A stretch of DNA of 27,095 bases from a virus (IMGVR_UViG_2537562194_000033), one strand, 5' to 3'; numbered from the stretch's first letter, positions 502-25,417 are shown. The notes: generated by a model not told the origin, from the sequence alone. Translations and numbers: made by a program.

Positions 502-512
502 TCTGAATGTCA

Positions 513-2645
513 TTATGCAAGCCTCACAATATAGTTAAATGCGATGTTTTTTACGGTGTTTTCTGCGTTCCCCGTAGCATTAACGGTGATGGTGTGTCCG
601 TGGGGACCAATAATGACAGAATGGGCATGAGCACCAATGCCGATAGTGTGGTTATGGGCACCGATATATACATTGTGAGCATGCCCTCCTGCGCTCGACG
701 TGGTACCTGTACCTAACGCAGCGTTATAACCGGCTGATACACCATTCCCCGCGCCAGTGTGACCAACAGGTATATTGTGTGAATGAGCTCCTGCGCTATT
801 TGTGGTTTTTGTGCCGTAATCAAATGAACTGGTCGTTTTAGTACCGTAATCAAACGACGATGTGGTTTTCGTCCCCAAATCAGTACTGGATGCGCTGGCG
901 CTGTGGGTGTGCGATTTAATGCCGTCCTGTTCCTGAGACAATACGGCACGACCACTGGCAGGTTTGCCCTTGATAGTCCAGCCACGCATATCAGGAATAA
1001 CGCCTGACGGATAAGCGACTGCAAGTTTCGGGTATGCAGATTTGTCAAAAGTCTGCCCCTGCATCAGGGCATAACCAGACGGAACGGTATCTGATGGCCA
1101 CGGAATCGGTGCACCGACTGGATAAAACTCTTCAGGAGGATGAGCCGAGGTGTAAAGCTGCGCCCACGGCGACCAGTTTGCGTCGGTCGTATCCCGTCGT
1201 GAACGAATAAATGCCGGAGCATGAGCACCGCTTATACCACTCCAGCCGATGAGTAATTCGCCTTCGCCAACGGCTGTCATCCCTTTCAGGTGAATGATAT
1301 TTCCATACGTTGTTGGATATCCGTTGTTATACGCCTCGTATAACTCCAGACCTGTGGCCCCCTGCATATTATCTGTCAGGGCGGTCAGCCGACCTTTTGA
1401 AGCCAGATTAACTGACGATACTGCTGTCCCATCTGACGGTAACGCCCCGATCTCTGATGCTGTTGGCTTATTCCTGGAGTTATAGTCCCTTCGCCAGCCA
1501 GGAGCATAAGCATCACCATGATTAATATAAGTAAATTGAGCATTAGGGATGCCTTCACCGCTGGATGTACTCGGTGTGGTAATGCGTATGGTCATTGCGC
1601 CGCGGGTGCCAATAACTTCCACAACAGCACCTGCAAGACAAATACTTCCGCAACCTGTATCTGTAATGACCTTATTATTTGCATAAGCCCATGAGCCTTT
1701 GCACATCCAGTAAGGATGGTTAAATGCCCCCTGACTCTCTAGCCAAAAAATCAACTGCGCAGTTGTCCATGCTTCACTATCTCCACCAATATTCAGCTCT
1801 GCACTATATGCACGGCAGGCACCGATATTTTTCGTAAAGGTGTCTTTATCAGAGATATCCTCACCATTCTTAGCTTTCTGCAGACGTTTTTCAGCATTGT
1901 CATAGGCAGCTTTTACTGCATTTGAAGTTGCCGCCAGCGTTTCAGATGTACTGTTGGTTGCACTGCTGAGCTGGACTATCCCTTTTCGTGCCGTCGTGGC
2001 GTCCTGAGCGGTATATTTTCCGTTAGCCAGGTCATACGCGGCCTTAACCGCTTTCGGCGTTGCGGCCAGCGTTTCAGAATCGCTGTTAGTGGCGCTACTG
2101 AGTTGAACAAAGCCTTTTGCGGTCAGCGAGGCATCCGGGTGACGTCGTGACTGTTCATGCTCTTTCAGTTTGTCATCCACGTAATCCACTGTGGCCATCA
2201 CCATGGTGTTATCCACGGTAAGCGCCACGCTGGCAGTGCTGGATACGGTTAGAATGGTGCGAAATGTTTGTGCACGTCCGGACCCCTCGGCAACGGTTGG
2301 CTTGTAACTTTCGGCAGTATTGCCCACCGCGATTAAATCGCCGTGCTCATCAAATACACCAATTTCCCGGATCCAGAATCCGCCCGTTTCAGGAGGAATA
2401 ACCAGCTCCGCAATAATGCGGTTCTGATGTGTTGCGTCCAGGATGACGCGATTAACAGTGTGTCGCCACACCTCATGCACCAGACGGGTCTGCTTACTGT
2501 CTGGTGTGGGCAACGTGCCGCCACCGTCGCCCACGGCCATATGAGTCAGGCGGACAGGCTTACCATCTGGCGCGGCTGCCTGAGCTAATTTTTTTGCACC
2601 CGTATCGGTGATAACGGTTTTAAATTTTCGTGTTGTGGTATTCAT
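513..2645 (-). CDS. H: tail fibre protein (gpH-like), P2-type N-terminal domain with His-box repeat tip
   Basis: 710-aa ORF with ATG at 2645. The N-terminal ~250 aa resemble the P2 gpH baseplate-attachment domain as I recall it (e.g. [21 protein letters not shown], duplicated SSATNS.SETLAAT blocks). The C-terminus carries tandem [10 protein letters not shown] repeats and five GxHxH motifs. Lies directly downstream of gene I. Confidence 0.9.
805..880 (-). repeat. about 2.5 tandem 30-bp repeats inside tail fibre gene H
   Basis: Nucleotide repeat GTTTT.GT.CCGTAATCAAA... encoding tandem [10 protein letters not shown] units. Confidence 0.7.
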
Positions 2646-2647
2646 GC

Positions 2648-3178
2648 TTAATCGTCCGGATAAATGGTAATAACTTCACCGTCATAAGTTGCCGCCGCTG
2701 CGAAAATATCCCCCGGAACTTCCTGAATGATATTCAGCCCTGTCATGTGGCGGCTGACCGGACGGGCATCAGCAATCAACCGCTCCATTTCCAGATACAT
2801 TTCCTCCGTCACGCCACTGTCCAGTGTGCCGACTTCAACGGTAAATGTTCCCGGTTCTCCGCCGAACTCCCACCATTCAGACACGCGAATGAGGTATCCC
2901 AGCGGCTCAATGGCCCTGCGCAGTGCGCTGATGGTCCCTTTGTGTCGGTGTATCAGCCATGCATCACGAATAACCTGTCGCTTTGTCTCTTCCGGCCAGT
3001 TGCGATCCCAGCGGTCAACGGAAAATGCCCAGGCGAGATAAGGCAGCAGGTGCACCGGGCAGGTGTCCGGCGACCACAGCGTGTTGAGGTCTACCGGGAT
3101 GTCTGTAATGCGCGTTCCGACGGCTTCGGCACAACGCATGAAATTGCTGGCTGATGGTGGTAACAACGAATTACTCAT
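2648..3178 (-). CDS. I: baseplate assembly protein gpI
   Basis: Start moved to the internal ATG at 3178 ([13 protein letters not shown]...), giving 176 aa. It overlaps the stop of J by 8 nt, as expected in a P2 late operon; the track ORF start at 3211 is upstream of that. Confidence 0.85.
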
Positions 3179-4067
3179 TGCGCCCACCTTCGCTGATGGT
3201 GAATGACTCACAGCGCGCCGCCTGTATGTCGCTGATGGCCATATTCTGTGTGGGTTCGATTATCTCCACGCGTTGCACACCGTGCACATGCAGTGCGGCA
3301 GCAATGGCGGACAACGCCACGTCCTGACCGATAAGCCCCTGCTCAGCCAGCCACTTCCTGAACGACGATTCCGCCGCAGCCAGAATAGGTTCGGATTCCG
3401 GGCCGGGGTAAAAGTACAGTTTTGCATTCAGCCGCCATGTCACGATTCTGGCGCTCTGTACAGTAAGGCGGTCGGCCACCGGGCGGGTATCCTCTGCATT
3501 CAGAACGGCGCGAACGGTATTAAGCAACGCCTCCGTTGCTGTGCCGTCGCCTTCAGTGGACAGGATGGAAACCGTCACATTTGCCGGAGACGGACTGATA
3601 GCCCGCGCATCACGCACCAGACCGCTGGCGCTGCGGGCAAAATACTCGTATGCACCTGACGGGCCAGCAACACTCAGGCCATCGTACGCCCGCTGCGCCC
3701 GCAGTCTCAGCGAGGTGTCACTTTCCATCACTGCGTCGGTGGTATCCGTTGCCGGAGTGATGGTCAGGCGCTTTGTGTTCATATTGCCCGCGAGGTTGTC
3801 CAGGTCTGTCCCGGCGCTGTGGCTTAACATGCAGGCGCGTGCCCCCTCGTTAACCCGCTGGCGTAACAGCATTTCACGAAACGACATGGTTTGAGCGATA
3901 ACGTTAAGGGGTTCCGATTCCAGCTCCAGCGCGGCGGAAACGGCTTCACGCTGTTCGGCGGGATAAGCCGCAATCATCATGGCCTTTGTGTCAGCCAGAA
4001 TTGCCTCAAAGTCAGGCTCCGCGATGATGGCGGGGTCCGGTAACTGTGAAAGGTCAACGGCGGGCAT
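3171..4067 (-). CDS. J: baseplate wedge protein gpJ
   Basis: 298-aa ORF with ATG at 4067 and a GGGAG ribosome-binding site 9 nt upstream. Size and position between W and I fit P2 gpJ. Confidence 0.85.
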   Translation of the reverse strand: MPAVDLSQLPDPAIIAEPDFEAILADTKAMMIAAYPAEQREAVSAALELESEPLNVIAQTMSFREMLLRQRVNEGARACMLSHSAGTDLDNLAGNMNTKRLTITPATDTTDAVMESDTSLRLRAQRAYDGLSVAGPSGAYEYFARSASGLVRDARAISPSPANVTVSILSTEGDGTATEALLNTVRAVLNAEDTRPVADRLTVQSARIVTWRLNAKLYFYPGPESEPILAAAESSFRKWLAEQGLIGQDVALSAIAAALHVHGVQRVEIIEPTQNMAISDIQAARCESFTISEGGRNE

Positions 4068-4070
4068 GAT

Positions 4071-4421
4071 TTACTCCCTTAGCGTGATGGTTAATTCAAC
4101 ATTCTGCATGGTCTGCATGACAGTGCCCGACAGCGTCACCCCGGCGCGGCCTCCCGCTTTCCAGACAACGTCGATGGCATCCAGGGCAATGCGGGGTTCC
4201 CATCGTGTCAGCGCAATCACGGCAGCACTCATGCATTGCAGACGCGTGGTGTTATTCATGGGTTCGTCAATCAAATCAGGCACAAGGCTGCCATATTCCC
4301 GTCGCATAACCCGGCTTGCCAGCGGGGTGGTCAGGATATCCCTGACTGACTGTTTCAGGTGCTCCATATCGTTCAGGTTTCCCGTTCCGTCCGGGTTCAT
4401 TCCTGTGTAGCGGGTTGTCAC
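4071..4421 (-). CDS. W: baseplate protein gpW (gp25-like)
   Basis: 116 aa starting MTTRYTGMN from a GTG at 4421 that overlaps the V stop (GTGA). Size and N-terminus match P2 gpW as recalled. Confidence 0.85.
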   Translation of the reverse strand: MTTRYTGMNPDGTGNLNDMEHLKQSVRDILTTPLASRVMRREYGSLVPDLIDEPMNNTTRLQCMSAAVIALTRWEPRIALDAIDVVWKAGGRAGVTLSGTVMQTMQNVELTITLRE

Positions 4422-5000
4422 TGCGGGCCTCCTGTCGAATCGCTGCCACCTTTAACGCCACCGTGCTTATGCGTATGCACTGTGATGCCGTTTGAGGTGA
4501 AATCGCCGCCGCTGTGCGTGATATTGCCGCTCATCTTTCCTCCTTTTGTGACGTCAAGCGTCGCCGTTCTCAGAAGGTTTGTGCATTCCACGACAGGTGT
4601 GTCCAGCGTCACACTGACGGATGCCTGCAGGGTGGCCGTTTTCATGCCGCTGGCGCTCAGTGCGCCTGCGTCCGCGTCGTAGCGGAACACCGCGCCATCC
4701 GGCGCGCTGATCACGATTTCTTTCAGGCTTTTGCCGGGTGCCGGAATGGCATCACTCCACAGACTGCCAATTATCATGGCGGTTTCCGGGTTGCCGCCGA
4801 TGCAGGCAATTACCACCTGTTCGCCGGGTGATGGCGGCAACCACACATTGAAGGCACCCGCGCGCGTGGTGTTCCAGCGCAGCCAGCCTGTTTCCAGTTC
4901 GCCGCTGCGAACGCGCACGCACCAGGACTTCCTCATCAACTTCAGAGATGATCCCGGTACGGATGATGTTGCTCAGCAGTCGCATGAGTTCAGCGCTCAC
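4418..5000 (-). pseudogene. V: baseplate spike/assembly protein gpV, apparent +1 frameshift
   Basis: The N-terminal part (MSAELMRLLSNIIRTGIISEVD...) is in the frame of 5000, and the rest (..CVRVRSGELETGWLRW..PPSPGEQVVI..) is in the frame of 4939. Together they reconstruct a typical gpV, but the span is 583 nt, not a multiple of 3. The shift maps to about 4925-4945. Confidence 0.6.
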
Positions 5001-11059: not shown

Positions 11060-12811
11060 ATGATTCAGGACGCTTTTGTGCGCCAGCGTGCGCGGCAACT
11101 TTACTGGCAGGGTTATCCGCCCGCAGAAATATCACGTCTGATGGGAATAAACCCGAACACGATTTATGCGTGGAAAAAACGCGACCAGTGGGATGAAACG
11201 CCACCCGTGCAGCGTGTCACGCAGTCCATCGATGCGCGCCTCATCCAGCTTACTGAAAAACAGAATAAAACAGGCGGTGATTTTAAGGAAATAGACCTGC
11301 TGACCCGGCAGCTTAAAAAGCTGCATGATGGCCATCCGGATGTGATGGCCGCAGGAAAGAAAGGCCGGGCGAAAAAACTCAAAAATCATTTCACGCCGGA
11401 ACAGATTGCCGCACTGCGGGAAAAAATCATCAACAGGCTGGAGTGGCATCAGCGGGGCTGGTTTGACTCCCTGACCCTTTGCAGGGAAGCCGGGATACGT
11501 AACAGGATGATCCTGAAATCCCGACAGATTGGGGCGACCTGGTATTTTGCACAGGAAGCACTGCTGATGGCGCTGCGTGACGATGTGGCGCAACCTTACC
11601 AGCGTAACCAGATTTTTTTGTCTGCGTCGCGTCGTCAGGCGTTCCAGTTTAAAAGCATTATTCAGAAGGCTGCGGCTGAAGTTGATGTGGAGCTGAAAGG
11701 GGGCGATAAAATCATCCTCTCCAATGGCGCAGAGCTGCATTTTCTCGGCACTTCTGCTGCGTCGGCACAGTCCTATACGGGCAATTTTTATTTTGATGAA
11801 TTTTTCTGGGTCAGTCGCTTTGCTGAACTGCGCAAGGTGGCTGGCGCTATGGCAACCCTCAGCGGACTGCGGCGCACCTACTTCTCCACGCCATCCACCG
11901 AAACGCACGAGGCATACGCCTACTGGAACGGCGACCGCTGGAACGAGAAAAAGGCCTTGCATAAACGCCAGCGTTTTTCTGTGGACTGGAAAACGCTGCA
12001 TAACGGGCTTATCTGCCCTGACCGGACGTGGCGGCAAATTGTCACGCTGGAAGATGTGGTTAATCACGGCTGGAAACACACCGATATCGACGAAATTCGT
12101 GATGAAAACACCGAAGACGAGTTCCTCAATCTCTATATGTGTGAGTTTGTCCGCGAAGGGGAATCGGCATTTAACCTGAATATCCTGATTGGCTGCGGTG
12201 TTGACGGATACGACGACTGGAAAGACTGGAAACCTTTTGCTCCCCGCCCGATGGGGAATCGTCCGGTATGGATTGGGTATGACGCAAACGGCAGCAGTGG
12301 CAACGGCGACAGCGGCGCTGTGTCTGTGGTGGTTCCTCCGGCTGTTCCTGGTGGCCGTTTTCGAACGGTGGAGACGCGACGCGTTCAGGGGCTGGAGTTT
12401 GAAGAACAGGCCAGAGTCATTGAAGAGTTCACGTGTCGCTACAACGTGGAACACATCGGCATTGATGTGACGGGCGGGAACGGGGAGGCTGTTTATCAGA
12501 TAGTGAAACGGTTTTTCCCTGCTGCTATTCCGTACACCTTCACGCTGTCATCAAAACGGTCGCTGGTACTGAAAATGCTGCAAATAATGCGTGCCGGGCG
12601 GTGGGAATACGATCGCGCCGAACGCGAGCTGGTCGCGGCCTTTAACGCCGTGCGTAAGGTGAAAACACCGGGCGGCTTTATCACTTACGAAACGGACCGC
12701 GCGAGGGGGATCAGCCACGGCGACCTTGCGTGGGCAACCATGCTTGCTGTCATTAACGAACCAATTGGCGGCGAAGGAGAAAACGAGCGTTTCACGGTTA
12801 TGGAGTTCTGA
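11060..12811 (+). CDS. P: terminase large (ATPase) subunit gpP
   Basis: 583 aa, ATG at 11060 after GGGGGAG. Contains a KSRQIGAT Walker-A-like motif. Size and position fit P2 gpP. Confidence 0.9.
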   Translation: MIQDAFVRQRARQLYWQGYPPAEISRLMGINPNTIYAWKKRDQWDETPPVQRVTQSIDARLIQLTEKQNKTGGDFKEIDLLTRQLKKLHDGHPDVMAAGKKGRAKKLKNHFTPEQIAALREKIINRLEWHQRGWFDSLTLCREAGIRNRMILKSRQIGATWYFAQEALLMALRDDVAQPYQRNQIFLSASRRQAFQFKSIIQKAAAEVDVELKGGDKIILSNGAELHFLGTSAASAQSYTGNFYFDEFFWVSRFAELRKVAGAMATLSGLRRTYFSTPSTETHEAYAYWNGDRWNEKKALHKRQRFSVDWKTLHNGLICPDRTWRQIVTLEDVVNHGWKHTDIDEIRDENTEDEFLNLYMCEFVREGESAFNLNILIGCGVDGYDDWKDWKPFAPRPMGNRPVWIGYDANGSSGNGDSGAVSVVVPPAVPGGRFRTVETRRVQGLEFEEQARVIEEFTCRYNVEHIGIDVTGGNGEAVYQIVKRFFPAAIPYTFTLSSKRSLVLKMLQIMRAGRWEYDRAERELVAAFNAVRKVKTPGGFITYETDRARGISHGDLAWATMLAVINEPIGGEGENERFTVMEF

Positions 12812-13857
12812 TGAGCAGAAAAAATAAAAAAGTGCGCATGAGTTCACGCATTGATCTCGCTGATGCGCTCAGGAAAGAATCGTCGCTCAGTGCATTCACT
12901 TTTGATGGTCCTTATCGCCTGACCGGGCATGATTTGCTGGACAATATGTACTGTGCTGATAACGGGCGGTGGTATGAAACCCCGGTGGACTGGTACGGTC
13001 TGGCAAGAGCCGCCCGGCAAACGTCCTGGCATCAGTCTGCGCTTTACTTTAAGCGCAATGTATTGCTCGGCTGCTATATTCCGCACCCGCTGCTTTCCCG
13101 GCAGGATTTCTCGGCGCTGGCGCTGGACTGGTTTGTGTTCGGTAACGCATTCCTTGAGCTTCGAAGCAATATGCTCGGCGAACCGCTTAAATTACGGCAC
13201 GCCCTGGCGAAATACATGCGACGCGGAAGCGATCTTGAATCATGGTGGTATGTGCAGGATGGCAAGGATGCGTTTCAGTTTCGCCCTGGCAAAGTGTGCC
13301 ACCTGATGAATCCGGATATTAACCAGGAAATCTACGGCATGCCGGAATATCTTGGCGCATTACTCTCGGCCAGCCTTTCTCATTCGGCGGACATGTTCAG
13401 AAAACTGTATTACGACAACGGATCCCACGCCGGGTGCATCATCTACATCGGTGCAGCGCAGGTAAACCGCGAAAGCATGGACTCCCTGAAAGAAACGTTA
13501 CAGGGTGCGCGTGGTGGTGGTGCATTTAAAAACGTGCTCATTCATGCGCCCAACGGGGGCAAAGAAGGTGTGCAAATTTTGCCGTTCCAGCAGATCACCG
13601 CAAAGGATGAGTTCATGAATGTTAAGGCGGCATCCCGTGATGATGTACTGGCTGCGCACCGCGTTCCGCCGCAACTGATGGGGGCGATGCCGGGTGAAAA
13701 AAGTGCGTTTGGTGATGTGGAGAAGGCCGCGCGGGTTTACGCAATTAACGAGCTGATGCCCGTCATGGAGGCCATGAAGCACATCAATGACTGGCTTGGC
13801 GAAGAGGTGATCCGCTTTAACCCTTACGCACTGTTAGATACCCAGCCCACATCCTGA
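12811..13857 (+). CDS. Q: portal protein gpQ
   Basis: 348 aa, ATG overlapping the P stop (TGATG). Last gene before the cos region, as in P2. Confidence 0.9.
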   Translation: MSRKNKKVRMSSRIDLADALRKESSLSAFTFDGPYRLTGHDLLDNMYCADNGRWYETPVDWYGLARAARQTSWHQSALYFKRNVLLGCYIPHPLLSRQDFSALALDWFVFGNAFLELRSNMLGEPLKLRHALAKYMRRGSDLESWWYVQDGKDAFQFRPGKVCHLMNPDINQEIYGMPEYLGALLSASLSHSADMFRKLYYDNGSHAGCIIYIGAAQVNRESMDSLKETLQGARGGGAFKNVLIHAPNGGKEGVQILPFQQITAKDEFMNVKAASRDDVLAAHRVPPQLMGAMPGEKSAFGDVEKAARVYAINELMPVMEAMKHINDWLGEEVIRFNPYALLDTQPTS

Positions 13858-14311
13858 CGCGCTTCGCTTGTCTGCTGCTTCGCCGGGGCATAAAAAATTT
13901 ATGCCCCGACTCTCCAGCTCCTGTATCAGTCAGATAATTTCACGACGCTTTCCTGCTTATTGCCATCATCGACGGTCAGACTCTTACGCAATCCCACTGC
14001 GCTGACTGCATGTTCTCGCCGCCTCAGTGCGATTTTGACGGCCTTATCTTCCACCCCATCAAATCAAAAGCCCTCACGTATTTTTCACGCTCAGCGTGAG
14101 AAATACGGCCATTCTGTCGTGTCGCTGCGACATCGTTAAGGGAACGCTATTTACCCCCTGAAACGCGGGCTGTTCCCCCGTCACCTGCGCACAGGAAAAA
14201 CGCGTTTTTTGTGCACGCACGGATCCTTGACGGATCCAGCCGCCATGCGGGCCGGAAGGGCAAAAAGTCGTTCAAAAAAATTGTGCAAATTTGTGCACTT
14301 TTGTGCAAAGA
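13858..14311. other. cos / packaging region (position inferred from gene order only)
   Basis: Non-coding stretch between the portal gene and the cargo operon. In P2 the cohesive ends lie just beyond Q. Contains a perfect palindrome GGGGCATAAA-AAA-TTTATGCCCC at 13884-13906 and a GGATCC-N5-GGATCC motif near 14222-14238. The exact cos cut site was not identified. Confidence 0.3.
14209..14307. repeat. TTGTGCA(A/C) direct repeats, three at exact 10-bp spacing plus one upstream
   Basis: TTGTGCA at 14209, 14281, 14291 and 14301, each preceded by a T or A tract. Confidence 0.6.
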
Positions 14312-14336
14312 AATGCCCCTCAAATTGAGGGGCATT
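14312..14336 (-). terminator. putative intrinsic terminator of the cargo operon
   Basis: AATGCCCCTCAA-A-TTGAGGGGCATT inverted repeat starting 14 nt after the protease stop, followed on the minus strand by TCTTTG. Confidence 0.5.
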
Positions 14337-14349
14337 ATGTCTTGAAGGA

Positions 14350-16575
14350 TTACGAACGAATAGGAATTGATGTTTGCGGTTGAATTGGCACGAGCACCTG
14401 ATTATAAGTACGTAAAATTTCGTTATACAGGTCTTGGTGCTTTGATGCCTTAATGGTAATTATAAGAGCATACTTGATTTTTTCTGCCTTATGGCTGGCT
14501 ATGCTTGCACCGGCCTCACGAGCGTTATAATGAATGTCAAATACAGGATTTTTTAGAGTTGAACCTAGCATGTTCTTCGAATTATGTAAGACGGTCTCCC
14601 ATTTGCCCATGTCAGAACGTCGCTCACTTTCAGTTGAATATTTGGCCAGTTCAAAGAATCCCTTGGTTTCAGCATTTTGTTTTCCGTCTTTGATTTTTGA
14701 ATCATTTGGCCGGAATGTCACTTCCAAACCAGCTTTTGTATAGGAAGCTGGGTCTTGTGGATCAGTGGTTGTTGCATAACAGAAAGTTGCCGCTAAGTTT
14801 ATTCTACCTTTCAAGCCACCTTCAGGTATTGGAAGAGAAGCGCGTAAGTATTTTCCTGGTTTCAATTCACCTTGGTAGACGATACGGGCAACACCATCAG
14901 GGCTGACTATAATGTCGTTCAAGTCTTCAGGCAGTTTTCCCCAGCCAACTTCTGTACAAGGATGATCAAGCTGTTTTGACGCATGAATTAACAAAGCTTT
15001 GATTGCTAGTAGGCTCAAATCGTTCCCTAAAATTGCCCGAACACCAACAGCTGCTCGTAAGGCGTAAGGAGAGGCAAAGCTTGTTCCTAGCTGGGGTATG
15101 ATTACAGGCTTCTTACCTTTACCTAAAACATGAAAGTACTCGTCTGTGTCACCACCAAACGCAACTAAATCCGGTTTCATCACGCCAGGACTTCTGCCTG
15201 GCCCAATGGCGCTATATGGTGCTCGTTTCCATTCCGTATCATTAACTGTATCACAAGCACCAACAGCAAGAGCATTAACGCAATCGGCTGGTACTTGAAT
15301 TCTTGCATTACCAGACTTGCGATCCATTTCTCCATTGTTGCCAACAGCAACAGTCATTAATGTTTCACCATCACTTAACAAATCATCAATAACGGAAGTC
15401 CATGCATGAACTTCCGTATCTTCAATTGGTAGGTCTGGACCTAAACTTAGATTGATAAACTGATACTGGCGAGACAACAATACCTCTTCAATAAAGCCCA
15501 AAGTTCGATATAGTTCCAGCGGATCTTCTTGGCAGGTCTTGTTGTCCAAAACTCTTAAGTTATCAATATAAGAGTATGGTCTTTTCGCTTCCGATTTATT
15601 ACTTATTGGTCCAAATAAAAAGGCTGAAGACACAGCTAAACCATGCTCTAAACCGTCTGGATCATCCTCTGCATGATCGTCCAAAACTCTATAGGATTTT
15701 AACCATGGCGATATAGCGTGCTCTGATGGTAAACCACCATCAAGAATCGCAACTTTTATTTCTGAAGATACGGGGCCCTCAGCAGGTAATTTACACTGAG
15801 CTAAAGGACCGTAGTTCCTTTGTATTGGTCTAATCCCACGCAATCTTGGAACCGGTCTTATTACTCGTACAAATGTAAATTTCGCAAGCTTACTAATAGT
15901 AATTCTATCGGCCTGGATTGGCACGAACCATAATGTACCAGCGGTAAAAGCTAATGAAGTATGTACTTTGATGTTCAAATTTGATGCAAACTGAACAAAT
16001 TGTTGCTGAACCAAGTCTTGTTCATTATCTGACAGTAAATGAACACCAACCTCAAAATACGAAGAATCCTGCTCACCAATGGTAATAATACGCTCTTCGG
16101 GTAAATAGGCATCGAACCGTTCTATGCGTGCAAAATCAATCGCTTCGTCAGAAAACTCTTTGAGTCCTGACACCCAATGAGGTAACTCTTTGAAGGATTC
16201 TCTTTTACCAGCAACAAACATTTGTGTCGTAGTTACTTCTGACACAGTAACTTTTCGCTTCCAGCTTTGAGGCGTAATTTTTACCGTCCTGCTGCCAATA
16301 GACGTTAACCCGGTAGACTTAAGCATTTTTGCAGGAAAAAAAGAGCGTGCAATATAGCTTGGATTCAACGTCAACTTAGCCACAGCATAATCATAAGGAC
16401 ATGCCTGACTGGGTAAATCATCAAAATTTTCTATAGTAGATGCAATTTGCGGCAATAAACGTTGTTTCGATTCGTAAAGAGAATAAACCTCAGCTTTTCC
16501 GGGCACTCTTTTAGGACCAGGAATATCGCTGGTTAATAATTCGCCGCGTCCAATCAGAAAATTAGTTTTCGCCAT
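14350..16575 (-). CDS. S8 subtilisin-like serine protease with uncharacterised N- and C-terminal domains (IetS-like?)
   Basis: 741 aa, ATG at 16575 with AGGAG 6 nt upstream. Catalytic motifs in canonical order: D279 (VAILDGG), H311 (LEHGLAV), N413 (VAVGNNGE), S499 (LGTSFASP). Flanked by ~265 aa N-terminal and ~200 aa C-terminal regions with no motif I recognise. AT-rich relative to the phage core. Confidence 0.85.
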   Translation of the reverse strand: MAKTNFLIGRGELLTSDIPGPKRVPGKAEVYSLYESKQRLLPQIASTIENFDDLPSQACPYDYAVAKLTLNPSYIARSFFPAKMLKSTGLTSIGSRTVKITPQSWKRKVTVSEVTTTQMFVAGKRESFKELPHWVSGLKEFSDEAIDFARIERFDAYLPEERIITIGEQDSSYFEVGVHLLSDNEQDLVQQQFVQFASNLNIKVHTSLAFTAGTLWFVPIQADRITISKLAKFTFVRVIRPVPRLRGIRPIQRNYGPLAQCKLPAEGPVSSEIKVAILDGGLPSEHAISPWLKSYRVLDDHAEDDPDGLEHGLAVSSAFLFGPISNKSEAKRPYSYIDNLRVLDNKTCQEDPLELYRTLGFIEEVLLSRQYQFINLSLGPDLPIEDTEVHAWTSVIDDLLSDGETLMTVAVGNNGEMDRKSGNARIQVPADCVNALAVGACDTVNDTEWKRAPYSAIGPGRSPGVMKPDLVAFGGDTDEYFHVLGKGKKPVIIPQLGTSFASPYALRAAVGVRAILGNDLSLLAIKALLIHASKQLDHPCTEVGWGKLPEDLNDIIVSPDGVARIVYQGELKPGKYLRASLPIPEGGLKGRINLAATFCYATTTDPQDPASYTKAGLEVTFRPNDSKIKDGKQNAETKGFFELAKYSTESERRSDMGKWETVLHNSKNMLGSTLKNPVFDIHYNAREAGASIASHKAEKIKYALIITIKASKHQDLYNEILRTYNQVLVPIQPQTSIPIRS

Positions 16576-16598
16576 ACATACTCCTTATCTATGCTGTA

Positions 16599-17720
16599 TT
16601 ACATTTTTTGACTGTATTTTCTAATTGTATCCCTACTGACTCCGGTTAAGTCTGATATGGCATGCTGGGATAATTTAGAATTTCTTTTTAGAGTAACTGC
16701 AATTTCTTTACGTTCATTCCTGTCTAATTCTGATAAACCATCTTTAATGAACGACCCAATCAACTCTTCATCTGAGGAAATACCTAAAGCGACCGAACGT
16801 CGGAATTTGTTGATAGAACGCTCAATATTACTAAAAGATTCATTTTTGAACATAATAGCCAGTAGATCTATCCAACGTGCAAAAATCGCGTAGTCGGGAC
16901 CCGAAAAGCGTTTAATTGCTTCTTTAATACTTTCGCTATCTGGCTTCTCAAAATTGAGCACTAAATCAAAACGTCTCCATAGTGCTGGATCAATCAACTC
17001 AGCGAAGTTAGTTGCAGCAAGTAGCAAACTAGAAGACGGCCATTCGTCAACCTCCTGGAGTATCACGGTAACAAGTCTTTTTAATTCTCCAACATCAGAA
17101 TCATCACTTCTCTTTTTGGCGATTGAATCAATTTCATCTAACAGAAGAACGCACGGCCCTTTCTTCGCAAAATCTAGAGCTGCCCGAAGGTTATTTCCGC
17201 TTTTGCCCAGATAGCTGCTCATTACTGCCGTTAAATCAAGAACGTAAAAAGGAACCCCTAATTTCTGAGCTAACCAGCTTGCCGTAAGTGTTTTACCGAC
17301 ACCCGGAGGGCCAACAAAAATGGCAGAGCGTGTTGGTTGTAAGCCGAGAGTCTTGAGGCGATCGATGTGCTTCCGCTCAAGAATAATTTGATCCAGTGAG
17401 TCTTCTATCTGACTGGACAGTAGAGGTTTGCTCACAATCTTTTCATTTGGTGCTTTAAGCAAGGTAAGCCTTGACTCCTCGTCCACAGGCATGGTTTGAG
17501 GCAGCGCTTGTTTTGGTGCGGTAACCTTACGCAGGCTTTGTGCAGGCTTTTGCGGTTTATTTCGTAGATAAAGATCAAGCTGCTCGGATAGAGCAGGCAT
17601 AGTTTCCCGATATTTACGCACCAAGCGAGCGACATATAACCGAACGTCATCATACTGTTCAGTTATTACCAGTCTAACTAGTTGGGCTAAATCTGACTGA
17701 ATACCACCTAAGTCGCCCAT
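16599..17720 (-). CDS. AAA+ ATPase with C-terminal HTH-like tail (IetA-like?)
   Basis: 373 aa, ATG at 17720 with AAGAGG upstream. Walker A GPPGVGKT (K143), Walker B VLLLDEID, sensor-1 AATN, RR at 249-250. The last ~25 aa (SKLSQHAISDLTGVSRDTIRKY) look like a helix-turn-helix. Stop is 23 nt before the protease start, so the two are an operon. Confidence 0.85.
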   Translation of the reverse strand: MGDLGGIQSDLAQLVRLVITEQYDDVRLYVARLVRKYRETMPALSEQLDLYLRNKPQKPAQSLRKVTAPKQALPQTMPVDEESRLTLLKAPNEKIVSKPLLSSQIEDSLDQIILERKHIDRLKTLGLQPTRSAIFVGPPGVGKTLTASWLAQKLGVPFYVLDLTAVMSSYLGKSGNNLRAALDFAKKGPCVLLLDEIDSIAKKRSDDSDVGELKRLVTVILQEVDEWPSSSLLLAATNFAELIDPALWRRFDLVLNFEKPDSESIKEAIKRFSGPDYAIFARWIDLLAIMFKNESFSNIERSINKFRRSVALGISSDEELIGSFIKDGLSELDRNERKEIAVTLKRNSKLSQHAISDLTGVSRDTIRKYSQKM

Positions 17721-17900
17721 CTTAACTGTAACCTCTTGATTTTAAGTGAATTGAAAAAGCATTTAACTGGACTATTTATAGTATTGCACTTTTTTATCAA
17801 ACAGGGAAGAGGAATACTATATGAAATTACAGTGTGCCCCATGGAACGTCCTTACCATGTCTAAACTCTACCTTCATACAATTGATGATTTCTTTCTTGG
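17721..17900 (-). promoter_or_regulatory. AT-rich intergenic region, probable promoter of the cargo operon
   Basis: 180-bp AT-rich spacer between the A stop and the ATPase start. It contains TTGATA and TATAAA hexamers on the minus strand, but their spacing is not canonical, so the promoter is not pinned down. Confidence 0.3.
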
Positions 17901-20666
17901 TTATTTTTTCTTCTCGCTATTGCCTTTGTCCTGCAACAGACCCGCCTTGTGACGTGCGCGTTCAGTGGTTTCATTGATTCTCTGTGCGTGCTCTGCGTCA
18001 CGGATGGCGCGCAGCATGTCAGAAAGCACGGTAACGGGGGGGTTCATGGTGTTCTGGTCCTGCTGAAGTGTGGATACCAGGCGTGCGGCGGCTTCGGGGT
18101 CTGATGCCCCCAGCTGTTCCAGATAGCTGGCGACCGGGTTATGGCGGATCTCCGTGCTGCTTACGCCGTGATTACGGCTCAGGCGCTGCCAGAGCTGCGT
18201 GATTCGGCTGTCCGGGCGGGTATCCGGTTTGCGTACAATTTCAAATCCCTGCGGTGCAATGATGCTGCCGTCAACGTACAGGCTGCCGCCCCGTAACAGG
18301 TGCTGCATCTGCTGTTCACCGATATGCAGGCCGAGAGATTCAGCAGATTCCCGCCATTCTTTAGCGAGTAATTCGTGGTTATCAGGCAAAGGCCGCTGCT
18401 GTTTGCGGCTCTGTGTCCAGCTCTGCATTTCATCACTGCTGTTTTTTGCCTGTTTGTCACGCAGCGAACGCATCAGCGCCCGGCGTTCGTGCCGTTTCAG
18501 TGAGCGCATCCATTCGTTCACTTCAACGCCGTCAGGGAGCTGCGGCCACGGTGCTGGCCGTTCTTCCGGCTGTTCTGCCCCGTTGTTGTCCGTTTCCTGT
18601 ACACGGGGACAGTTATTGCCACGAGTCCAAGGGGCGGCAGGGCCGCCCTGAAGGTCAAAACCATTTTCGCGGGCGCTGTCTTCCGTTTCCGGTTTACGTC
18701 TTACCAGTTTCCAGTTATCCGGATGCGTGCACACACGGGAGGATTCCCCGATGAGTGGTGACCAGATCCCGTAAATCTGTACGCTCTGTTCGCCGTAATC
18801 ATTCAGCTCATCTGCGAGGTCGTAGGCGGTGCGAATCAGGTAGTCTTTGCGTGGAACAAGTACGCCGCCCTGTTTTTCAATGTAGGAGGCAAAACACCCG
18901 GCATCAGCGGCAGCGAGTACCGCATCCATTGCATCATCCTTCAGCCGTTGCGGGCCTTCCGGGTTGCGTGCCATCTGGCTGGCAAGGCGGCGGAGTTCAC
19001 GCCATACCTGACGGGAGGGGATGCCAAAGAACTGGAACTGGCGGACCCGATGAAGACGCGCCCAGCCAATGGCGCGCTCCACGCTCTCGGCCATTGATTT
19101 TCCGGTTTCGTGGTCAACGCGTGGCTTGCCCGTTTTCGGGTCGATGCCATCTACGGCGCGGCTGTCCAGGTTTTTTCCGATGTAGGTCGCGATATAGCTG
19201 GTTGGTGTGCCTTTTGAGCCGTCGACATACTCCGCCTTAAAGCGCGGAGTAATATCATCGCCCAGTTCGTGACGATCTTCCTGAATGGCAATATCGCGGG
19301 TGATGGCCACGATGCTGTCGATTTCTTCCGGATGAGCAAAGACCATCATATGCCAGTGCACGGTGCCGTCATGGTGAGGCTCCACCGTGCGGATGCCATA
19401 CCAGCGCAGGCCGTCGCGGTTCAGTTTTTTGCGGACCGCCGCAAAAAACGTGTTAACCAGGTAATCGCTGGAGTCGCGCATGGTGGCCCCGTTCCATTTG
19501 GGGTTCGGATGACCGTTCTCCGTTGTTGCGTGGTATTTTGACGGGCAGGTGACAGTCAGAAACACCGCTTTGTCACCACGGGCTTCGGCCAGAAGTTCCA
19601 GCCCCTTCATGGTGGCCATCATTTCTGCCTTACGGTGAACCGGGTTACTTACTCCCGCGTAATACACTGTCTCGAGATCAATCGTGAACCCGTCTTCATT
19701 TTCCAGCATGAAACTTTTCAGGAAATCGCGTGTTTTCTCGCGCTGTGCGCGAAACTCGCTTAACGCGTCCTGGCTCAGATAGGGCGATGTTTTTCTGGAA
19801 ACCAGACAGGCGGCGCGGAGTTGTTCTTCTCTCCACTCGCAACGTAACAGCCACAGTTTGCGTTTCCACCATTCCGCACAGGTCAGGCGAAGGATTGCGC
19901 CCGGCAGCAGCTCCGTGTCCGGTTCGTTCCTCCGGTCTTTGTCTGTTGTCAGTGCGTCATAATGTGGAGGCATGGCGTGCAGGTGTAACGCCATGCGGGC
20001 CAGCATCTGATACGCCTTCAGCGTTACATCCATGGTCAGTTCGCCATCGGTCGCGCCAAAGCCATCGCAGAGTTTTTCGAAGGTGCTGCTGAACATCGCC
20101 GCCGTCATGGTGGCCAGTGTCTGTATCTGGTGTTTGTTGAGCTGCGGCAGGTAAAGCAAATCGTCCAGGCGTTCGCGTCCGGCAAGGGAGCGATAACCCT
20201 GTGTCAGCCAGCGGTGATCGGTGCGCTCCAGACGTTCGAATATTTTGCGCAGGTTTCCGCGCGCGTAGCGTTCAGCCTGCCAGCTCTTTTTGCCTTTCTG
20301 ACGATCGGCTTCCTGTTTTTTGCGCAGGAAGGAGAGGTGGCGAATAAGCGGATCGCGCAGATAGGACGGCAGCAGGCGCAGCGAGGCCATGGCTTCATCC
20401 ACCGCGCCGCGTGCCTGTTTTCTGGCATCTCCTGCCAGTGTGATGGTTTTGTCCTGTTTTTCCTGTGCGTCCAGGCTTTTATTAATCAGGTTGCCCAGCG
20501 GCGTTGCGGAGAACGCCGCATCAGCCATTTCCTGGCGGCGCTCGTTCTCTACCCGGTAGGCATCCAGCCAGGAGGAAAGCGCGGATTCAGGAGCGGGGAT
20601 CCCCGTTCCTTCACGCCCCACTGCGTGGCGCGGTTGTTGCCAGTCCCTGATGTACTCTGCCGTCAT
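17901..20666 (-). CDS. A: replication initiation endonuclease gpA (rolling-circle initiator)
   Basis: 921 aa. Contains HHDGTVHWHMMVFA (HUH-like metal site) and YIATYIGK (catalytic Tyr region), as expected for the P2 A family. Confidence 0.9.
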   Translation of the reverse strand: MTAEYIRDWQQPRHAVGREGTGIPAPESALSSWLDAYRVENERRQEMADAAFSATPLGNLINKSLDAQEKQDKTITLAGDARKQARGAVDEAMASLRLLPSYLRDPLIRHLSFLRKKQEADRQKGKKSWQAERYARGNLRKIFERLERTDHRWLTQGYRSLAGRERLDDLLYLPQLNKHQIQTLATMTAAMFSSTFEKLCDGFGATDGELTMDVTLKAYQMLARMALHLHAMPPHYDALTTDKDRRNEPDTELLPGAILRLTCAEWWKRKLWLLRCEWREEQLRAACLVSRKTSPYLSQDALSEFRAQREKTRDFLKSFMLENEDGFTIDLETVYYAGVSNPVHRKAEMMATMKGLELLAEARGDKAVFLTVTCPSKYHATTENGHPNPKWNGATMRDSSDYLVNTFFAAVRKKLNRDGLRWYGIRTVEPHHDGTVHWHMMVFAHPEEIDSIVAITRDIAIQEDRHELGDDITPRFKAEYVDGSKGTPTSYIATYIGKNLDSRAVDGIDPKTGKPRVDHETGKSMAESVERAIGWARLHRVRQFQFFGIPSRQVWRELRRLASQMARNPEGPQRLKDDAMDAVLAAADAGCFASYIEKQGGVLVPRKDYLIRTAYDLADELNDYGEQSVQIYGIWSPLIGESSRVCTHPDNWKLVRRKPETEDSARENGFDLQGGPAAPWTRGNNCPRVQETDNNGAEQPEERPAPWPQLPDGVEVNEWMRSLKRHERRALMRSLRDKQAKNSSDEMQSWTQSRKQQRPLPDNHELLAKEWRESAESLGLHIGEQQMQHLLRGGSLYVDGSIIAPQGFEIVRKPDTRPDSRITQLWQRLSRNHGVSSTEIRHNPVASYLEQLGASDPEAAARLVSTLQQDQNTMNPPVTVLSDMLRAIRDAEHAQRINETTERARHKAGLLQDKGNSEKKK

Positions 20667-24203: not shown

Positions 24204-24530
24204 ATGACTAAAAATACTCGTTTTTCCCCCGAAGTCCGTCAGCGGGCGATTCGTATGGTTCTGGAAAGTCAGGATGAATATGACTCACAGTGGGCGGCAA
24301 TTTGTTCCATTGCCCCAAAGATTGGCTGTACGCCGGAGACTCTGCGTGTCTGGGTTCGCCAGCATGAGCGGGATACCGGGGGCGGTGATGGTGGGCTCAC
24401 CAGCGCTGAACGTCAGCGTCTGAAAGAGCTGGAACGTGAAAATCGTGAACTGCGCCGCAGTAACGATATCCTTCGCCAGGCTTCCGCTTATTTTGCGAAG
24501 GCGGAGTTCGACCGCCTCTGGAAAAAATGA
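24204..24530 (+). CDS. IS3-family transposase OrfA (HTH and leucine-zipper part)
   Basis: 108 aa. The -1 frame relationship to orfB at the A6 run (24522-24527) fits the programmed frameshift typical of IS3-family elements. Confidence 0.9.
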
Positions 24531-25417
24531 TGCCACTGCTGGATAAGCTGCGTGAGCAGTACGGGGTCGGACCGGTATGCAGCGAACTGCATATTGCCCC
24601 GTCAACGTATTACCATTGTCAGCAACAGCGACATCATCCGGATAAACGCAGTGCCCGTGCGCAGCACGACGACTGGCTGAAGAGAGAGATACAGCGCGTA
24701 TACGATGAAAATCATCAGGTGTACGGTGTGCGTAAAGTCTGGCGTCAGTTGTTACGGGAAGGAATCAGGGTGGCCAGATGTACAGTGGCACGTCTCATGG
24801 CGGTTATGGGACTTGCCGGTGTTCTCCGGGGTAAAAAGGTCCGTACGACCATCAGCCGGAAAGCCGTTGCCGCAGGCGACCGCGTAAACCGTCAGTTCGT
24901 GGCAGAACGACCTGACCAGCTGTGGGTGGCTGATTTTACTTACGTCAGCACATGGCAGGGCTTCGTCTATGTGGCGTTTATCATTGATGTGTTTGCCGGA
25001 TACATCGTGGGGTGGCGGGTCTCATCGTCTATGGAAACGACATTCGTGCTGGATGCGCTGGAGCAGGCGTTGTGGGCCCGTCGTCCGTCTGGCACCATCC
25101 ATCACAGCGATAAAGGCTCTCAGTATGTGTCACTGGCCTATACGGAGCGACTAAAAGAAGCCGGATTACTGGCATCAACAGGGAGTACAGGCGACTCGTA
25201 TGACAACGCGATGGCTGAGAGCATCAATGGTCTTTACAAAGCGGAGGTAATACACCGTAAGAGCTGGAAAAACCGTGCAGAAGTGGAACTGGCCACACTA
25301 ACGTGGGTGGACTGGTATAACAATCGACGATTGCTGGGAAGGCTGGGCCATACTCCTCCGGCAGAAGCAGAAAAAGCTTATTATGCTTCCATCGGAAACG
25401 ATGATCTGGCAGCCTGA
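24527..25417 (+). CDS. IS3-family transposase OrfB (DDE catalytic domain)
   Basis: 296 aa with an rve-type integrase core (WVADFTYV...HSDKGSQY...[14 protein letters not shown]). Confidence 0.9.

What the first reader, a model, noticed from the sequence alone, without database searches (positions are those of the whole stretch)
16599..16700. The ATPase ends in a helix-turn-helix-like tail
The last ~25 residues (SKLSQHAISDLTGVSRDTIRKYSQKM) have the hydrophobic/Gly/polar pattern of a DNA-binding HTH. This suggests either autoregulation of the cargo operon or nucleic-acid sensing by the ATPase component.
Basis: inference. Interest (0 to 1): 0.45.

Follow-up and report, generated by a model that had tools for sequence, protein, structure and literature searches.

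The report
DNA-binding tail on IetA defence ATPase
The ATPase of a known two-gene anti-phage system (IetAS), carried by a P2-like prophage, ends in a real helix-turn-helix domain that probably binds a conserved "TAGTCC" box in the system's own promoter: a useful but unsurprising clue to how this poorly understood system is controlled.

Summary
ORF 16599-17720 (-) is IetA, the AAA+ ATPase of the IetAS defence/toxin-antitoxin pair. IetS, an S8 peptidase, follows at 14350-16575 (-). Both lie in the cargo hotspot of a P2-like prophage.

Residues 334-373 form three helices beyond a complete AAA+ lid. After the ATPase core, helix 2-turn-helix 3 is the most conserved part of the protein across 122 divergent relatives. 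The window's own Pfam HTH hits fall below threshold. The family evidence is stronger:
- 27 of 75 relatives match HTH_23 (best E 2.8e-10).
- The domain profile matches a Fis-like DNA-binding protein (E 5.8e-5) and the DeoR DNA-binding domain (E 1.2e-4).
- Fis DNA-contact positions (from memory) align with the most conserved IetA residues.

Function is inferred, not shown. The ~100 nt upstream of ietA travel with the cassette across phyla and carry a near-invariant TAGTCC box at the promoter or transcription start (about 50-fold enriched). In three distant loci the box forms inverted repeats around the promoter. IetA's HTH is the only recognisable DNA-binding domain in the cassette, so antitoxin-style autoregulation is the best reading (about 0.5). 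DNA sensing or tethering is not excluded.

This is an ordinary HTH on a known system and looks undescribed in the searchable literature. Interest is modest.

The parts
16599..17720 (-). ietA: 373-aa classic-clade AAA+ ATPase, the antitoxin/ATPase component of IetAS
16602..16721 (-). C-terminal helix-turn-helix domain, residues 334-373. Helix 1 = 16680-16721, helix 2 = 16644-16667, turn G360-V-S = 16635-16643, recognition helix 3 = 16605-16634.
   Evidence: AF2 secondary structure and pLDDT. Coordinates. Conservation. Family-level Pfam HTH hits. Profile hits to Fis-like and DeoR DNA-binding domains. hhalign to Fis, probability 62%, E 7e-5.
16731..17423 (-). AAA+ module, about residues 100-330. 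Walker A GPPGVGKT = 17289-17312. Also Walker B LLLDEID and the Arg pair in ALWRRFD. The four-helix lid ends at about residue 330.
14350..16575 (-). ietS: 741-aa S8 (subtilase) peptidase, the toxin/effector. It starts 23 nt after the ietA stop codon and has its own AAGGAG ribosome-binding site.
   Evidence: ORF. Pfam Peptidase_S8 2.5e-19. PADLOC IetS PDLC02197 1.1e-51. NCBIfam IteS 135 bits, below the cutoff of 900.
17768..17774 (-). TAGTCC(A) box, 54 nt upstream of the ietA start codon. Candidate operator for the IetA HTH.
   Evidence: Position. Near-invariant in 60 anchored loci: T98, A80/C20, G83/T16, T100, C100, C96. 4.9 copies per kb in -120..-1 against about 0.1 per kb elsewhere. Occurs as inverted repeats in L070, L088 and L089.
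17771..17800 (-). Promoter-like region. The scan finds TTGATA (17795-17800), 18 nt, AATAGT (17771-17776). The TACTAT inferred by homology as the -10 lies at 17778-17783. The small palindrome ACTAT-AA-ATAGT at 17771-17782 links the -10 to the box.
   Evidence: Scan. Homologous promoters TTCACA-17/18-GAnAAT with a TG extension in L018 and L044. Alignments. Coordinates.
17777..17821 (-). Inverted repeat specific to the enterobacterial subclade: TATAGTATT (17813-17821) / AATACTATA (17777-17785), 27 nt apart. It brackets the -35-like hexamer and overlaps the -10-like hexamer. A possible second operator element.
   Evidence: the repeat finder I1. Arms are kept in Salmonella L003, Serratia L082 and Pectobacterium L085, with one mismatch in Klebsiella L083, while the spacer diverges.
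17729..17743 (-). Conserved block before the start codon: AAAATCAAGAGGTTA (family consensus aaATCAAt..gTTA). Role unknown; it could be a ribosome-binding region or a degenerate second site.
   Evidence: Alignments of 62 loci and of the enteric subclade. Coordinates.

Best explanation
The last 40 residues of IetA (334-373) are a three-helix helix-turn-helix DNA-binding domain attached to the C-terminus of a classic-clade (FtsH/Cdc48-like) AAA+ ATPase. The domain belongs to the homeodomain-like/resolvase/Fis sector of the HTH clan.

The domain is a nearly universal feature of the IetA family, not a peculiarity of this copy. Its most likely job is sequence-specific binding to the TAGTCC box that sits on the promoter or transcription start of the ietAS cassette. 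IetA, the antitoxin-like partner of the IetS protease, would then repress or tune transcription of its own operon, as type II antitoxins usually do.

Shown here:
- HTH sequence pattern, predicted fold and family-wide conservation.
- Homology at profile level to DNA-binding HTHs.
- A conserved cassette-borne promoter with a TAGTCC box.
- Inverted-repeat forms of the box at the DNA level.

Inferred, not shown:
- That the HTH binds DNA at all.
- That the TAGTCC box is its target.
- That binding represses transcription.
For: (1) Identity and context. PADLOC IetA 1e-77 and IetS 1.1e-51. The cassette sits between P2 gpA and the portal gene in a P2-like prophage and has about 40% GC against 53-58% in the backbone.

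(3) Sequence homology. 27 of 75 family members hit HTH_23 (best 2.8e-10), with HTH_7 at 6e-8 and HTH_psq at 9e-10. The profile hits Fis-like 6m10 at 5.8e-5 and the DeoR DNA-binding domain at 1.2e-4. hhalign to Fis gives E 7e-5. It aligns S362, R363, T365, R367 and K368 with Fis N84, R85, T87, R89 and K90. From my own knowledge, these are the Fis residues needed for DNA binding.

(4) Selection. Helix 2-turn-helix 3 is the second most conserved segment of the protein (0.61 against 0.33 for the lid). The HTH plus tail has a median net charge of +5. Many relatives add a basic tail such as PKKRRREA or GPSPRKGRGLK.

(5) Candidate target. 26 of 123 upstream columns are at least 80% conserved, against 2 of 105 fourfold-degenerate sites in ietA. 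TAGTCC occurs 51 times in the -120..-1 regions of 86 loci, about 50-fold above background. It lies 0-5 nt after the -10 in most loci.

In distant loci the box lies inside the -35/-10 spacer and forms inverted repeats:
- L089: GTTAGTCCA/TGGACTAAC, 9 of 9.
- L088: GGACTA-23-TAGTCC.
- L070: 13-nt arms.
This marks it as a DNA site rather than an RNA 5' end.

(6) Pfam finds no other DNA-binding domain in the two-gene cassette.

(7) IetA behaves as the antitoxin of a toxin-antitoxin pair (PMC13069673, citing Yamamoto 2009).
Against: - No binding data exist.
- The window protein's own Pfam HTH scores are sub-threshold.
- Structural matches are individually non-significant, as expected for a 60-residue helical domain.
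- The recognition helix is almost invariant, yet positions 2-3 of the box vary (TAGTCC, TCGTCC, TATTCC). One clade (L072-L081) instead has TTCGYCA direct repeats with only an S362A change, so protein-site covariation is weak.
- A dyad is absent in most main-clade loci.
- Four of six very distant loci show no TAGTCC.
- The conserved upstream blocks could in part simply be a good promoter plus a leader.
- A host or phage factor, rather than IetA, could bind the box.
- This copy lacks the basic C-terminal extension that most relatives carry.
Confidence: 0.5

Rival explanations
1. The HTH is a sensor or tether rather than, or in addition to, a repressor. It holds the IetA hexamer on DNA, or recognises phage nucleic acid or replication intermediates. 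Changes in DNA state during infection would then be coupled to ATPase activity and to release or activation of the IetS protease.
For: It rests on the same fold, conservation and positive charge as the best explanation. Basic tails after helix 3 in many relatives suggest extra, less specific DNA contacts. Phage escape mutations for ietAS fall among core replication machinery components, and the system acts by abortive infection (10.1101/2022.08.27.505566). A hexamer would present six HTHs.
Against: An almost invariant recognition helix across hosts from Enterobacteria to Nitrospira argues for a conserved, sequence-specific target. Such a target is found inside the cassette, whereas phage genomes differ. 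The only defined trigger, SPbeta YosG for the Bacillus system, is a protein. No direct evidence supports this reading.
Confidence: 0.2
2. The HTH-like bundle no longer binds nucleic acid. Instead it is a protein-protein module, docking IetS or stabilising the IetA ring, and its conserved surface is a protein interface.
For: HTH folds are sometimes reused as protein interfaces. The conserved polar residues would fit a conserved partner such as IetS. Only three residues link the domain to the last lid helix, and it folds together with that helix as a compact four-helix unit. This suggests limited mobility.
Against: The conserved positions are those that contact DNA in Fis-type HTHs. Net charge is about +5 and basic tails are frequent. 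The conserved inverted-repeat box in the promoter would then need another binder, and none is encoded in the cassette.
Confidence: 0.15
3. There is no separate domain. The tail is the end of the AAA+ lid and its HTH-like pattern is a chance resemblance.
Against: A complete four-helix lid precedes it, and AAA+ structures align to no more than 256 residues. Family-level HTH hits reach 2.8e-10, and profile hits to DNA-binding HTHs are around 1e-4. The segment is much more conserved than the lid.
Confidence: 0.03

Closest known systems
IetAS (IetA AAA+ ATPase plus IetS S8 protease). First described as a plasmid-stabilising toxin-antitoxin pair of pTiC58 (Yamamoto 2009; not held, cited via PMC13069673 and PMC8562856), later as an anti-phage system (Gao 2020, cited in PMC13069673).
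   Same: Same two-gene architecture, order and strand. Full-length PADLOC IetA and IetS matches. Prophage-borne, as noted for E. coli ietAS (10.1101/2022.08.21.504612). The HTH region lies inside the family models: the NCBIfam IteA alignment runs to model position 366 of 367, and PADLOC to 370 of 374.
   Different: Scores are below the NCBIfam equivalog cutoffs (223 < 510; 135 < 900), so this is a divergent subfamily relative to the reference proteins. No held paper that mentions ietAS describes an HTH in IetA. Precomputed Pfam annotations list only AAA domains.
Fis and the C-terminal Fis-type HTH of bacterial enhancer-binding proteins (NtrC/PspF family: AAA+ followed by HTH)
   Same: Same domain order, an AAA+ ATPase followed by a short C-terminal HTH. 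There is profile-level similarity to Fis and Fis-like proteins, with the DNA-contact positions matching.
   Different: IetA's ATPase belongs to the classic FtsH/Cdc48/Vps4 clade, not the bEBP clade. The sequence contains no GAFTGA loop (read directly). The partner is a protease, not sigma-54. More family members match HTH_23 and HTH_7 than any Fis-type family.
Type II antitoxins with a DNA-binding domain that autorepress their operon (for example Xre/HTH, RHH or AbrB antitoxins)
   Same: The proposed logic is the same. The neutralising partner carries the DNA-binding domain, and a dyad-capable box overlaps the operon's own promoter. IetA is treated as the antitoxin in the literature.
   Different: The antitoxin here is a 373-aa ATP-driven AAA+ machine with the HTH at its C-terminus. 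It is not a small labile protein with an N-terminal DNA-binding domain. Autorepression is not demonstrated for IetAS.
HTH_23 / HTH_7 / HTH_psq (homeodomain-like HTHs of transposases and serine recombinases, such as Tc3, IS21 IstA, Hin/resolvase)
   Same: These give the best Pfam matches for family members and the lowest-rmsd structural matches. The motif is the same: small residue-Q-x-x-I/A...G-V/I-S-R-x-T-V/I-x-R/K.
   Different: No recombinase or transposase catalytic domain is present. The window copy itself does not reach any of these families' gathering scores.

Membership tests
IetAS defence / toxin-antitoxin system | An AAA+ ATPase matching IetA models over its full length | tested here: met
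   PADLOC PDLC02196, E 1e-77, residues 9-372 on model positions 5-370 of 374.
IetAS defence / toxin-antitoxin system | An adjacent, co-oriented S8 peptidase matching IetS models | tested here: met
   PADLOC PDLC02197, E 1.1e-51, residues 36-726. Pfam Peptidase_S8 2.5e-19. The gene starts 23 nt after ietA.
IetAS defence / toxin-antitoxin system | Reaches the NCBIfam equivalog cutoffs (IteA 510 bits, IteS 900 bits) | tested here: not met
   223.3 and 135.3 bits. It is a homologue in a divergent subfamily, not an equivalog of the reference pair.
IetAS defence / toxin-antitoxin system | Anti-phage activity, or protease toxicity neutralised by the ATPase | not testable with these tools
   Needs plaque and toxicity assays. 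The literature reports these properties for other IetAS homologues.
Helix-turn-helix DNA-binding domains (Pfam HTH clan) | Two helices joined by a tight Gly-containing turn within a three-helix bundle, with the canonical hydrophobic pattern | tested here: met
   Predicted helices 334-347, 352-359 and 363-372, with the turn G360-V-S, at pLDDT about 90. Motif positions 4, 5, 9, 10, 15 and 18 fit.
Helix-turn-helix DNA-binding domains (Pfam HTH clan) | A significant match to a curated HTH family model | tested here: inconclusive
   The window copy gives HTH_11 19.1 bits against a cutoff of 25, HTH_23 17.0 against 24.6, and HTH_24 15.0 against 21.9 (18.1 for residues 313-373 scanned alone): all below cutoff. 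Among its relatives, 27 of 75 match HTH_23 (best E 2.8e-10) and 17 match HTH_7. The profile matches PDB HTH proteins at about 1e-4.
Helix-turn-helix DNA-binding domains (Pfam HTH clan) | Binds DNA | not testable with these tools
   The only support is indirect: conserved basic and polar recognition-helix residues, net charge of +5, and a conserved promoter box.
Bacterial enhancer-binding proteins (NtrC/PspF type AAA+ plus Fis-type HTH) | bEBP-clade AAA+ domain with a GAFTGA sigma-54 contact loop | tested here: not met
   The sequence has no GAFTGA. The closest sequences and structures are FtsH, Cdc48/p97, Vps4 and spastin.
Autoregulating type II antitoxin | The antitoxin binds an operator that overlaps its own promoter | tested here: inconclusive
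   A conserved, dyad-capable TAGTCC box overlaps the promoter or transcription start. Binding by IetA is not shown.

The most novel reading that the evidence does not exclude
IetA is a DNA-anchored unfoldase. Its hexamer sits on TAGTCC operator repeats at its own promoter through several HTHs, which both represses ietAS and keeps IetS in check. Phage replication proteins, or disturbance of DNA during infection, dislodge or re-engage the ring. Transcriptional derepression and activation of the protease would then be one coupled switch. This would be the first mechanistic model for IetAS, and an example of a classic-clade AAA+ machine gated by sequence-specific DNA binding.
Probability: 0.12. 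Interest if true: 0.6.

Novelty: new member of a known kind. Interest (0 to 1): 0.36.

Why it matters
IetAS is widespread and confirmed as an anti-phage, abortive-infection system, but its mechanism is still described as unknown (PMC13069673, 2026). This work recognises three things:
- The ATPase carries a conserved DNA-binding-type domain.
- The cassette carries its own conserved promoter.
- That promoter contains a dyad-capable TAGTCC box.

Together these give concrete, inexpensive experiments (gel shift, reporter fusion, three point mutants, one truncation) on how the toxic protease is kept under control and possibly how infection is sensed. The result also shows that current annotation ("AAA family ATPase", PF00004 only) misses a domain. 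It does not overturn anything: a DNA-binding domain on an antitoxin-like protein is what a specialist would expect.

Tried and rejected
- PDB sequence search with the tail alone gave only a chance hit at E 0.87. No solved IetA structure exists; the best hits are Cdc48/p97.
- Rfam at a permissive threshold over 13800-18100 found nothing relevant. The two weak hits (E 0.95 and 2.9, below the gathering scores) lie outside the ietA upstream region. I therefore dropped the idea that the conserved leader is a known RNA family.
- I tested a conserved RNA hairpin after TAGTCC. z was below -2 in only 21 of 62 loci (mean z -1.0), and the hairpin is absent in the window and in Salmonella copies. It is not a universal element.
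- I looked for covariation between recognition-helix residues and box variants (TAGTCC, TCGTCC, TATTCC). None was convincing. Only S362A accompanies the TTCGYCA and CATACCA loci, and L076 is an exception.
- I looked for IetA relatives lacking the HTH. The short ones appear to be truncated fragments, and divergent C-termini still read as HTH. One PADLOC IetA model (PDLC04232, 330 positions) ends before the tail, but I could not retrieve its members.
- TAGTCCA is not enriched elsewhere in the window: 4 copies against 1.45 expected.
- Yamamoto 2009 (PMC2704731) is not held, so I could not check whether it mentions a DNA-binding motif. Literature searches for ietAS with HTH or helix-turn-helix found nothing relevant.

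Full report
**What is at the coordinates**

The finding lies at the 3' end of a 373-codon ORF on the minus strand (16599-17720). The ORF ends ...LKRNSKLSQHAISDLTGVSRDTIRKYSQKM, exactly as quoted.

The protein is an AAA+ ATPase (Pfam AAA, 2.6e-30). Its best named match is IetA of the IetAS anti-phage / toxin-antitoxin system (PADLOC PDLC02196, 1e-77, full length). The next gene, 23 nt downstream (14350-16575, minus strand), is a 741-aa S8 peptidase matching IetS (1.1e-51).

Both proteins score below the NCBIfam equivalog cutoffs (223 < 510; 135 < 900). They are therefore members of a divergent IetAS subfamily rather than equivalogs of the reference pair.

**Genomic context**

- The pair lies between the replication gene A (17901-20666, Phage_GPA 3e-131) and the portal gene (12811-13857) of a P2-like prophage.
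- From my own knowledge (Rousset et al. 2022), this is the position of the variable cargo hotspot of P2-like phages.
- The cassette has about 40% GC, against 53-58% in the phage backbone.
- The 4-kb stretch is 100% identical to E. coli 95NR1. There the proteins are annotated only as "AAA family ATPase" and "S8 family peptidase".

**Is the tail a helix-turn-helix?**

Taking Q352 as position 1, the 20-residue motif QHAISDLTGVSRDTIRKYSQ has the canonical hydrophobic or small residues at positions 4, 5, 10, 15 and 18, and Gly at position 9.

AlphaFold2, run on a 28-sequence alignment, gives these helices:
- 262-281, 284-290, 296-312 and 317-329, which make a complete four-helix AAA+ lid.
- 334-347, 352-359 and 363-372, at pLDDT about 81-86.

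Residues 312-373 folded alone give mean pLDDT 90.5 with the same helices.

**Sequence evidence**

The window protein on its own gives only sub-threshold hits: HTH_11 at 1.3e-3, HTH_23 at 5e-3 and HTH_24 at 0.019.

The family evidence is much stronger:
- The tail motif is invariant or nearly so in 28 relatives of 64-95% identity.
- In 122 representatives (library clustered at 50% identity; 35-58% identical to the query), the consensus is L..G.(L)SQRxISxLTGVSRDTIRK. Frequencies include S351 0.80, Q352 0.73, G360 0.82, R363 0.87 and T365 0.93.
- Helix 2-turn-helix 3 has a mean majority frequency of 0.61. The ATPase core scores 0.70, the lid 0.33 and the N-terminal domain 0.38.
- Of 75 divergent C-terminal domains scanned singly, 27 match HTH_23 (best 2.8e-10), 17 match HTH_7 (6e-8), 13 each match HTH_28 and HTH_29, and 10 match HTH_psq (9e-10).
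- A profile of these domains hits PDB sequences of a Fis-like DNA-binding protein (6m10, 5.8e-5), the DeoR DNA-binding domain (7bhy, 1.2e-4), Fis, Aca1 and IstA.
- hhalign against E. coli Fis gives probability 62% and E 7e-5. It aligns IetA S362, R363, T365, R367 and K368 with Fis N84, R85, T87, R89 and K90. From my own knowledge, these are the Fis residues required for DNA binding.
- The HTH plus tail has a median net charge of +5.
- Most relatives carry an extra basic extension after helix 3, such as PKKRRREA, RRKADA or GPSPRKGRGLK. The window copy lacks it and ends SQKM.
- Relatives with divergent C-termini still read as HTH. Those without one look like truncated fragments.

It holds for the IetA family as a whole.

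**What might it bind?**

I fetched 80 ietA loci from species-representative genomes and ten more from assemblies.

The ~100 nt upstream of ietA are strikingly conserved. This holds although the hosts range from Enterobacterales to Beta- and Alphaproteobacteria, Nitrospira and Desulfomicrobium, and although the flanking genes differ. Among the fetched enteric loci, Serratia L082 and Klebsiella L083, like the window, lie directly after a P2 gpA gene. Two others (L084, L085) lie in other contexts, and the block is still kept. The promoter region therefore travels with the cassette.

Conservation figures:
- 26 of 123 upstream alignment columns are at least 80% conserved. Only 2 of 105 fourfold-degenerate sites in conserved ietA codons reach that level.
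- The blocks are a -35-like TTCACA, an extended -10 (TGnGAnAAT), a hexamer T(A/C)(G/T)TCC, and a block before the start codon, aaATCAAt..gTTA.
- The scan tool finds TTCACA-18-GACAAT and TTCACA-17-GAAAAT, both with the TG extension, and TTGACC-18-TAAAAT in a second clade.
- The hexamer begins 0-5 nt after the -10, around the transcription start.
- Anchored on the hexamer, the base frequencies are T98, A80/C20, G83/T16, T100, C100, C96.
- TAGTCC occurs 51 times in the -120..-1 regions of 86 non-identical loci. That is 4.9 per kb, against about 0.1 per kb in the flanks.

In the window the elements are:
- The box at 17769-17774 (minus strand).
- A -10-like TACTAT at 17778-17783. It forms the small palindrome ACTAT-AA-ATAGT with the box.
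- An inverted repeat TATAGTATT / AATACTATA (17813-17821 and 17777-17785). Salmonella, Serratia and Pectobacterium copies keep it although the spacer diverges.

**DNA site or RNA element?**

Three results point to DNA:
- Rfam finds nothing in the ietA upstream region.
- A hairpin following the box is present in only about a third of loci and is absent from the window.
- In distant loci the box moves relative to the promoter and becomes part of inverted repeats.

The inverted-repeat loci are:
- L089 (38% protein identity): a perfect GTTAGTCCA / TGGACTAAC pair, 37 nt apart. The left arm lies inside the spacer of TTGACA-17-TATATT and the right arm just before the start codon.
- L088 (39%): GGACTA-23-TAGTCC, with the box inside the spacer of TTGACT-16-TATATT.
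- L070 (54%): TGGACTAATTTTT / AAAAAATAGTCCA.

A box that sits in the non-transcribed spacer and forms dyads behaves like an operator. Pfam detects no DNA-binding domain in IetS. The IetA HTH is therefore the only candidate binder encoded in the cassette. An almost invariant recognition helix across very different hosts also fits a target that moves with the gene.

Weaknesses in this argument:
- Protein-site covariation is poor.
- Most main-clade loci have a single box without an obvious dyad.
- One clade (L072-L081) has TTCGYCA direct repeats instead.
- Four of six very distant loci show no box.

**Mechanism proposed**

IetA is a classic-clade AAA+ ATPase. It has an intact Walker A (GPPGVGKT), Walker B (LLLDEID) and an Arg pair (ALWRRFD). 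In the literature it acts as the antitoxin of the IetS protease (PMC13069673; PMC8562856).

I propose that its C-terminal HTH binds the TAGTCC box over the cassette's own promoter or transcription start. This would autoregulate ietAS, as type II antitoxins typically do. My confidence is about 0.5.

Steps inferred but not shown are DNA binding, the identity of the site, and the direction of regulation.

The main rival, which is not exclusive, is DNA tethering or sensing. ietAS acts by abortive infection, phage escape mutations map among core replication functions, and the Bacillus system is triggered by SPbeta YosG. A pure protein-protein role is less likely. A "lid only" reading is close to excluded.

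**Comparison with what is known**

- The locus is a member of the known IetAS kind.
- The domain is an ordinary HTH-clan domain, closest to HTH_23, HTH_7 and Fis-like types.
- The order AAA+ then C-terminal HTH resembles NtrC/PspF-type enhancer-binding proteins. IetA is not one of them, because its ATPase clade differs and it has no GAFTGA loop.
- No ietAS paper in the library searched describes an HTH in IetA. The 2026 NAR paper still calls the mechanism unknown.
- The original 2009 description could not be read.

**Verdict**

The locus is a new member of a known kind. Interest is modest (0.36). The result gives a concrete, testable handle on regulation in a system with no known mechanism, but a specialist would not be surprised by it.

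Noticed in passing
window 17721-17833 (-); loci L002-L091: About 100 nt upstream of ietA are conserved across phyla and move with the cassette. The blocks are a -35-like TTCACA, an extended -10 TGnGAnAAT, a TAGTCC box at the start site and a block aaATCAAt..gTTA before the ATG. 26 of 123 columns are at least 80% conserved, against 2 of 105 fourfold-degenerate sites in ietA.
   Followed up: yes
L005, L010-L012, L016, L021, L034-L036, L055, L056, L060 and others; the equivalent window position is 17735-17768: Directly after the TAGTCC box, about a third of loci (21 of 62 with z < -2) have a hairpin or palindrome. Its sequence differs between loci (for example GGTTTT..AAAACC, CGTTTTCCG..CGGAAAACA). 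The window and Salmonella copies lack it, and its role is unknown.
   Followed up: partly
L072-L081, upstream of ietA: A clade of IetA proteins (50-52% identical, HTH reading HTHxQISQMTGVARDTIRKHAGPSPRKGRGLK) has a different promoter layout. It reads TTGACn, then two direct repeats TTCGYCA 12 nt apart flanking the -10, instead of the single TAGTCC box.
   Followed up: partly
window 16599-16616 (-), C-terminus of IetA: Many relatives (about 30% of the 122 representatives have net charge >= +2 after K368; median tail 9 residues) continue after the recognition helix with a basic extension such as PKKRRREA, RRKADA or PRKGRGLK. The window copy stops after SQKM, and close enteric relatives have only SPKKSNAA.
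   Followed up: partly
window 17556-17720 (-) and 17466-17552 (-): IetA has a conserved N-terminal three-helix region (residues 4-53, with invariant D10, L11, Q13, R16 and ARLVRxYR). A low-confidence, probably disordered linker follows (residues 57-85, pLDDT below 50). No family matched it. It could be the IetS- or substrate-binding part.
   Followed up: no
window 17205-17216 (-), IetA residues 169-172: The pore-loop-1 position aligned with p97 (MSKMAGES / SMWFGES) reads SYLG in enteric copies but SLLG in most other relatives. The aromatic residue usually needed for substrate threading is therefore not conserved in the family.
   Followed up: no
window 14350-17900: The ietAS cassette has about 37-46% GC, against 53-58% in the surrounding P2-like prophage genes. 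This fits recent acquisition as hotspot cargo between gene A and the portal gene.
   Followed up: partly
window 24204-25417 (+): An IS3-family insertion sequence (orfA HTH_Tnp_1, orfB rve; annotated as IS1203 in the near-identical E. coli 95NR1 record over this stretch) sits between the prophage cox-like gene and the repressor/integrase genes. It lies in the lysis-lysogeny switch region, so the prophage may be defective or locked.
   Followed up: partly
window 17901-20666 (-): The replication gene A product is 921 aa. The Phage_GPA domain covers only residues 179-503, so there are long N- and C-terminal extensions of unknown function.
   Followed up: no
window 13858-14349: A 492-nt non-coding gap lies between the portal gene and the end of ietS. 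It contains a palindrome GTGCACAAATTTGCAC (14283-14298) that scores as a terminator-like site on both strands. This is the likely terminator and cassette boundary.
   Followed up: no
window 1-5000 vs L001: The window is nearly identical to E. coli 95NR1 from about 5000 onward. The first ~5 kb (tail and tail-fibre genes) do not match at the same offset, because of either an indel or a swapped tail-fibre module.
   Followed up: no
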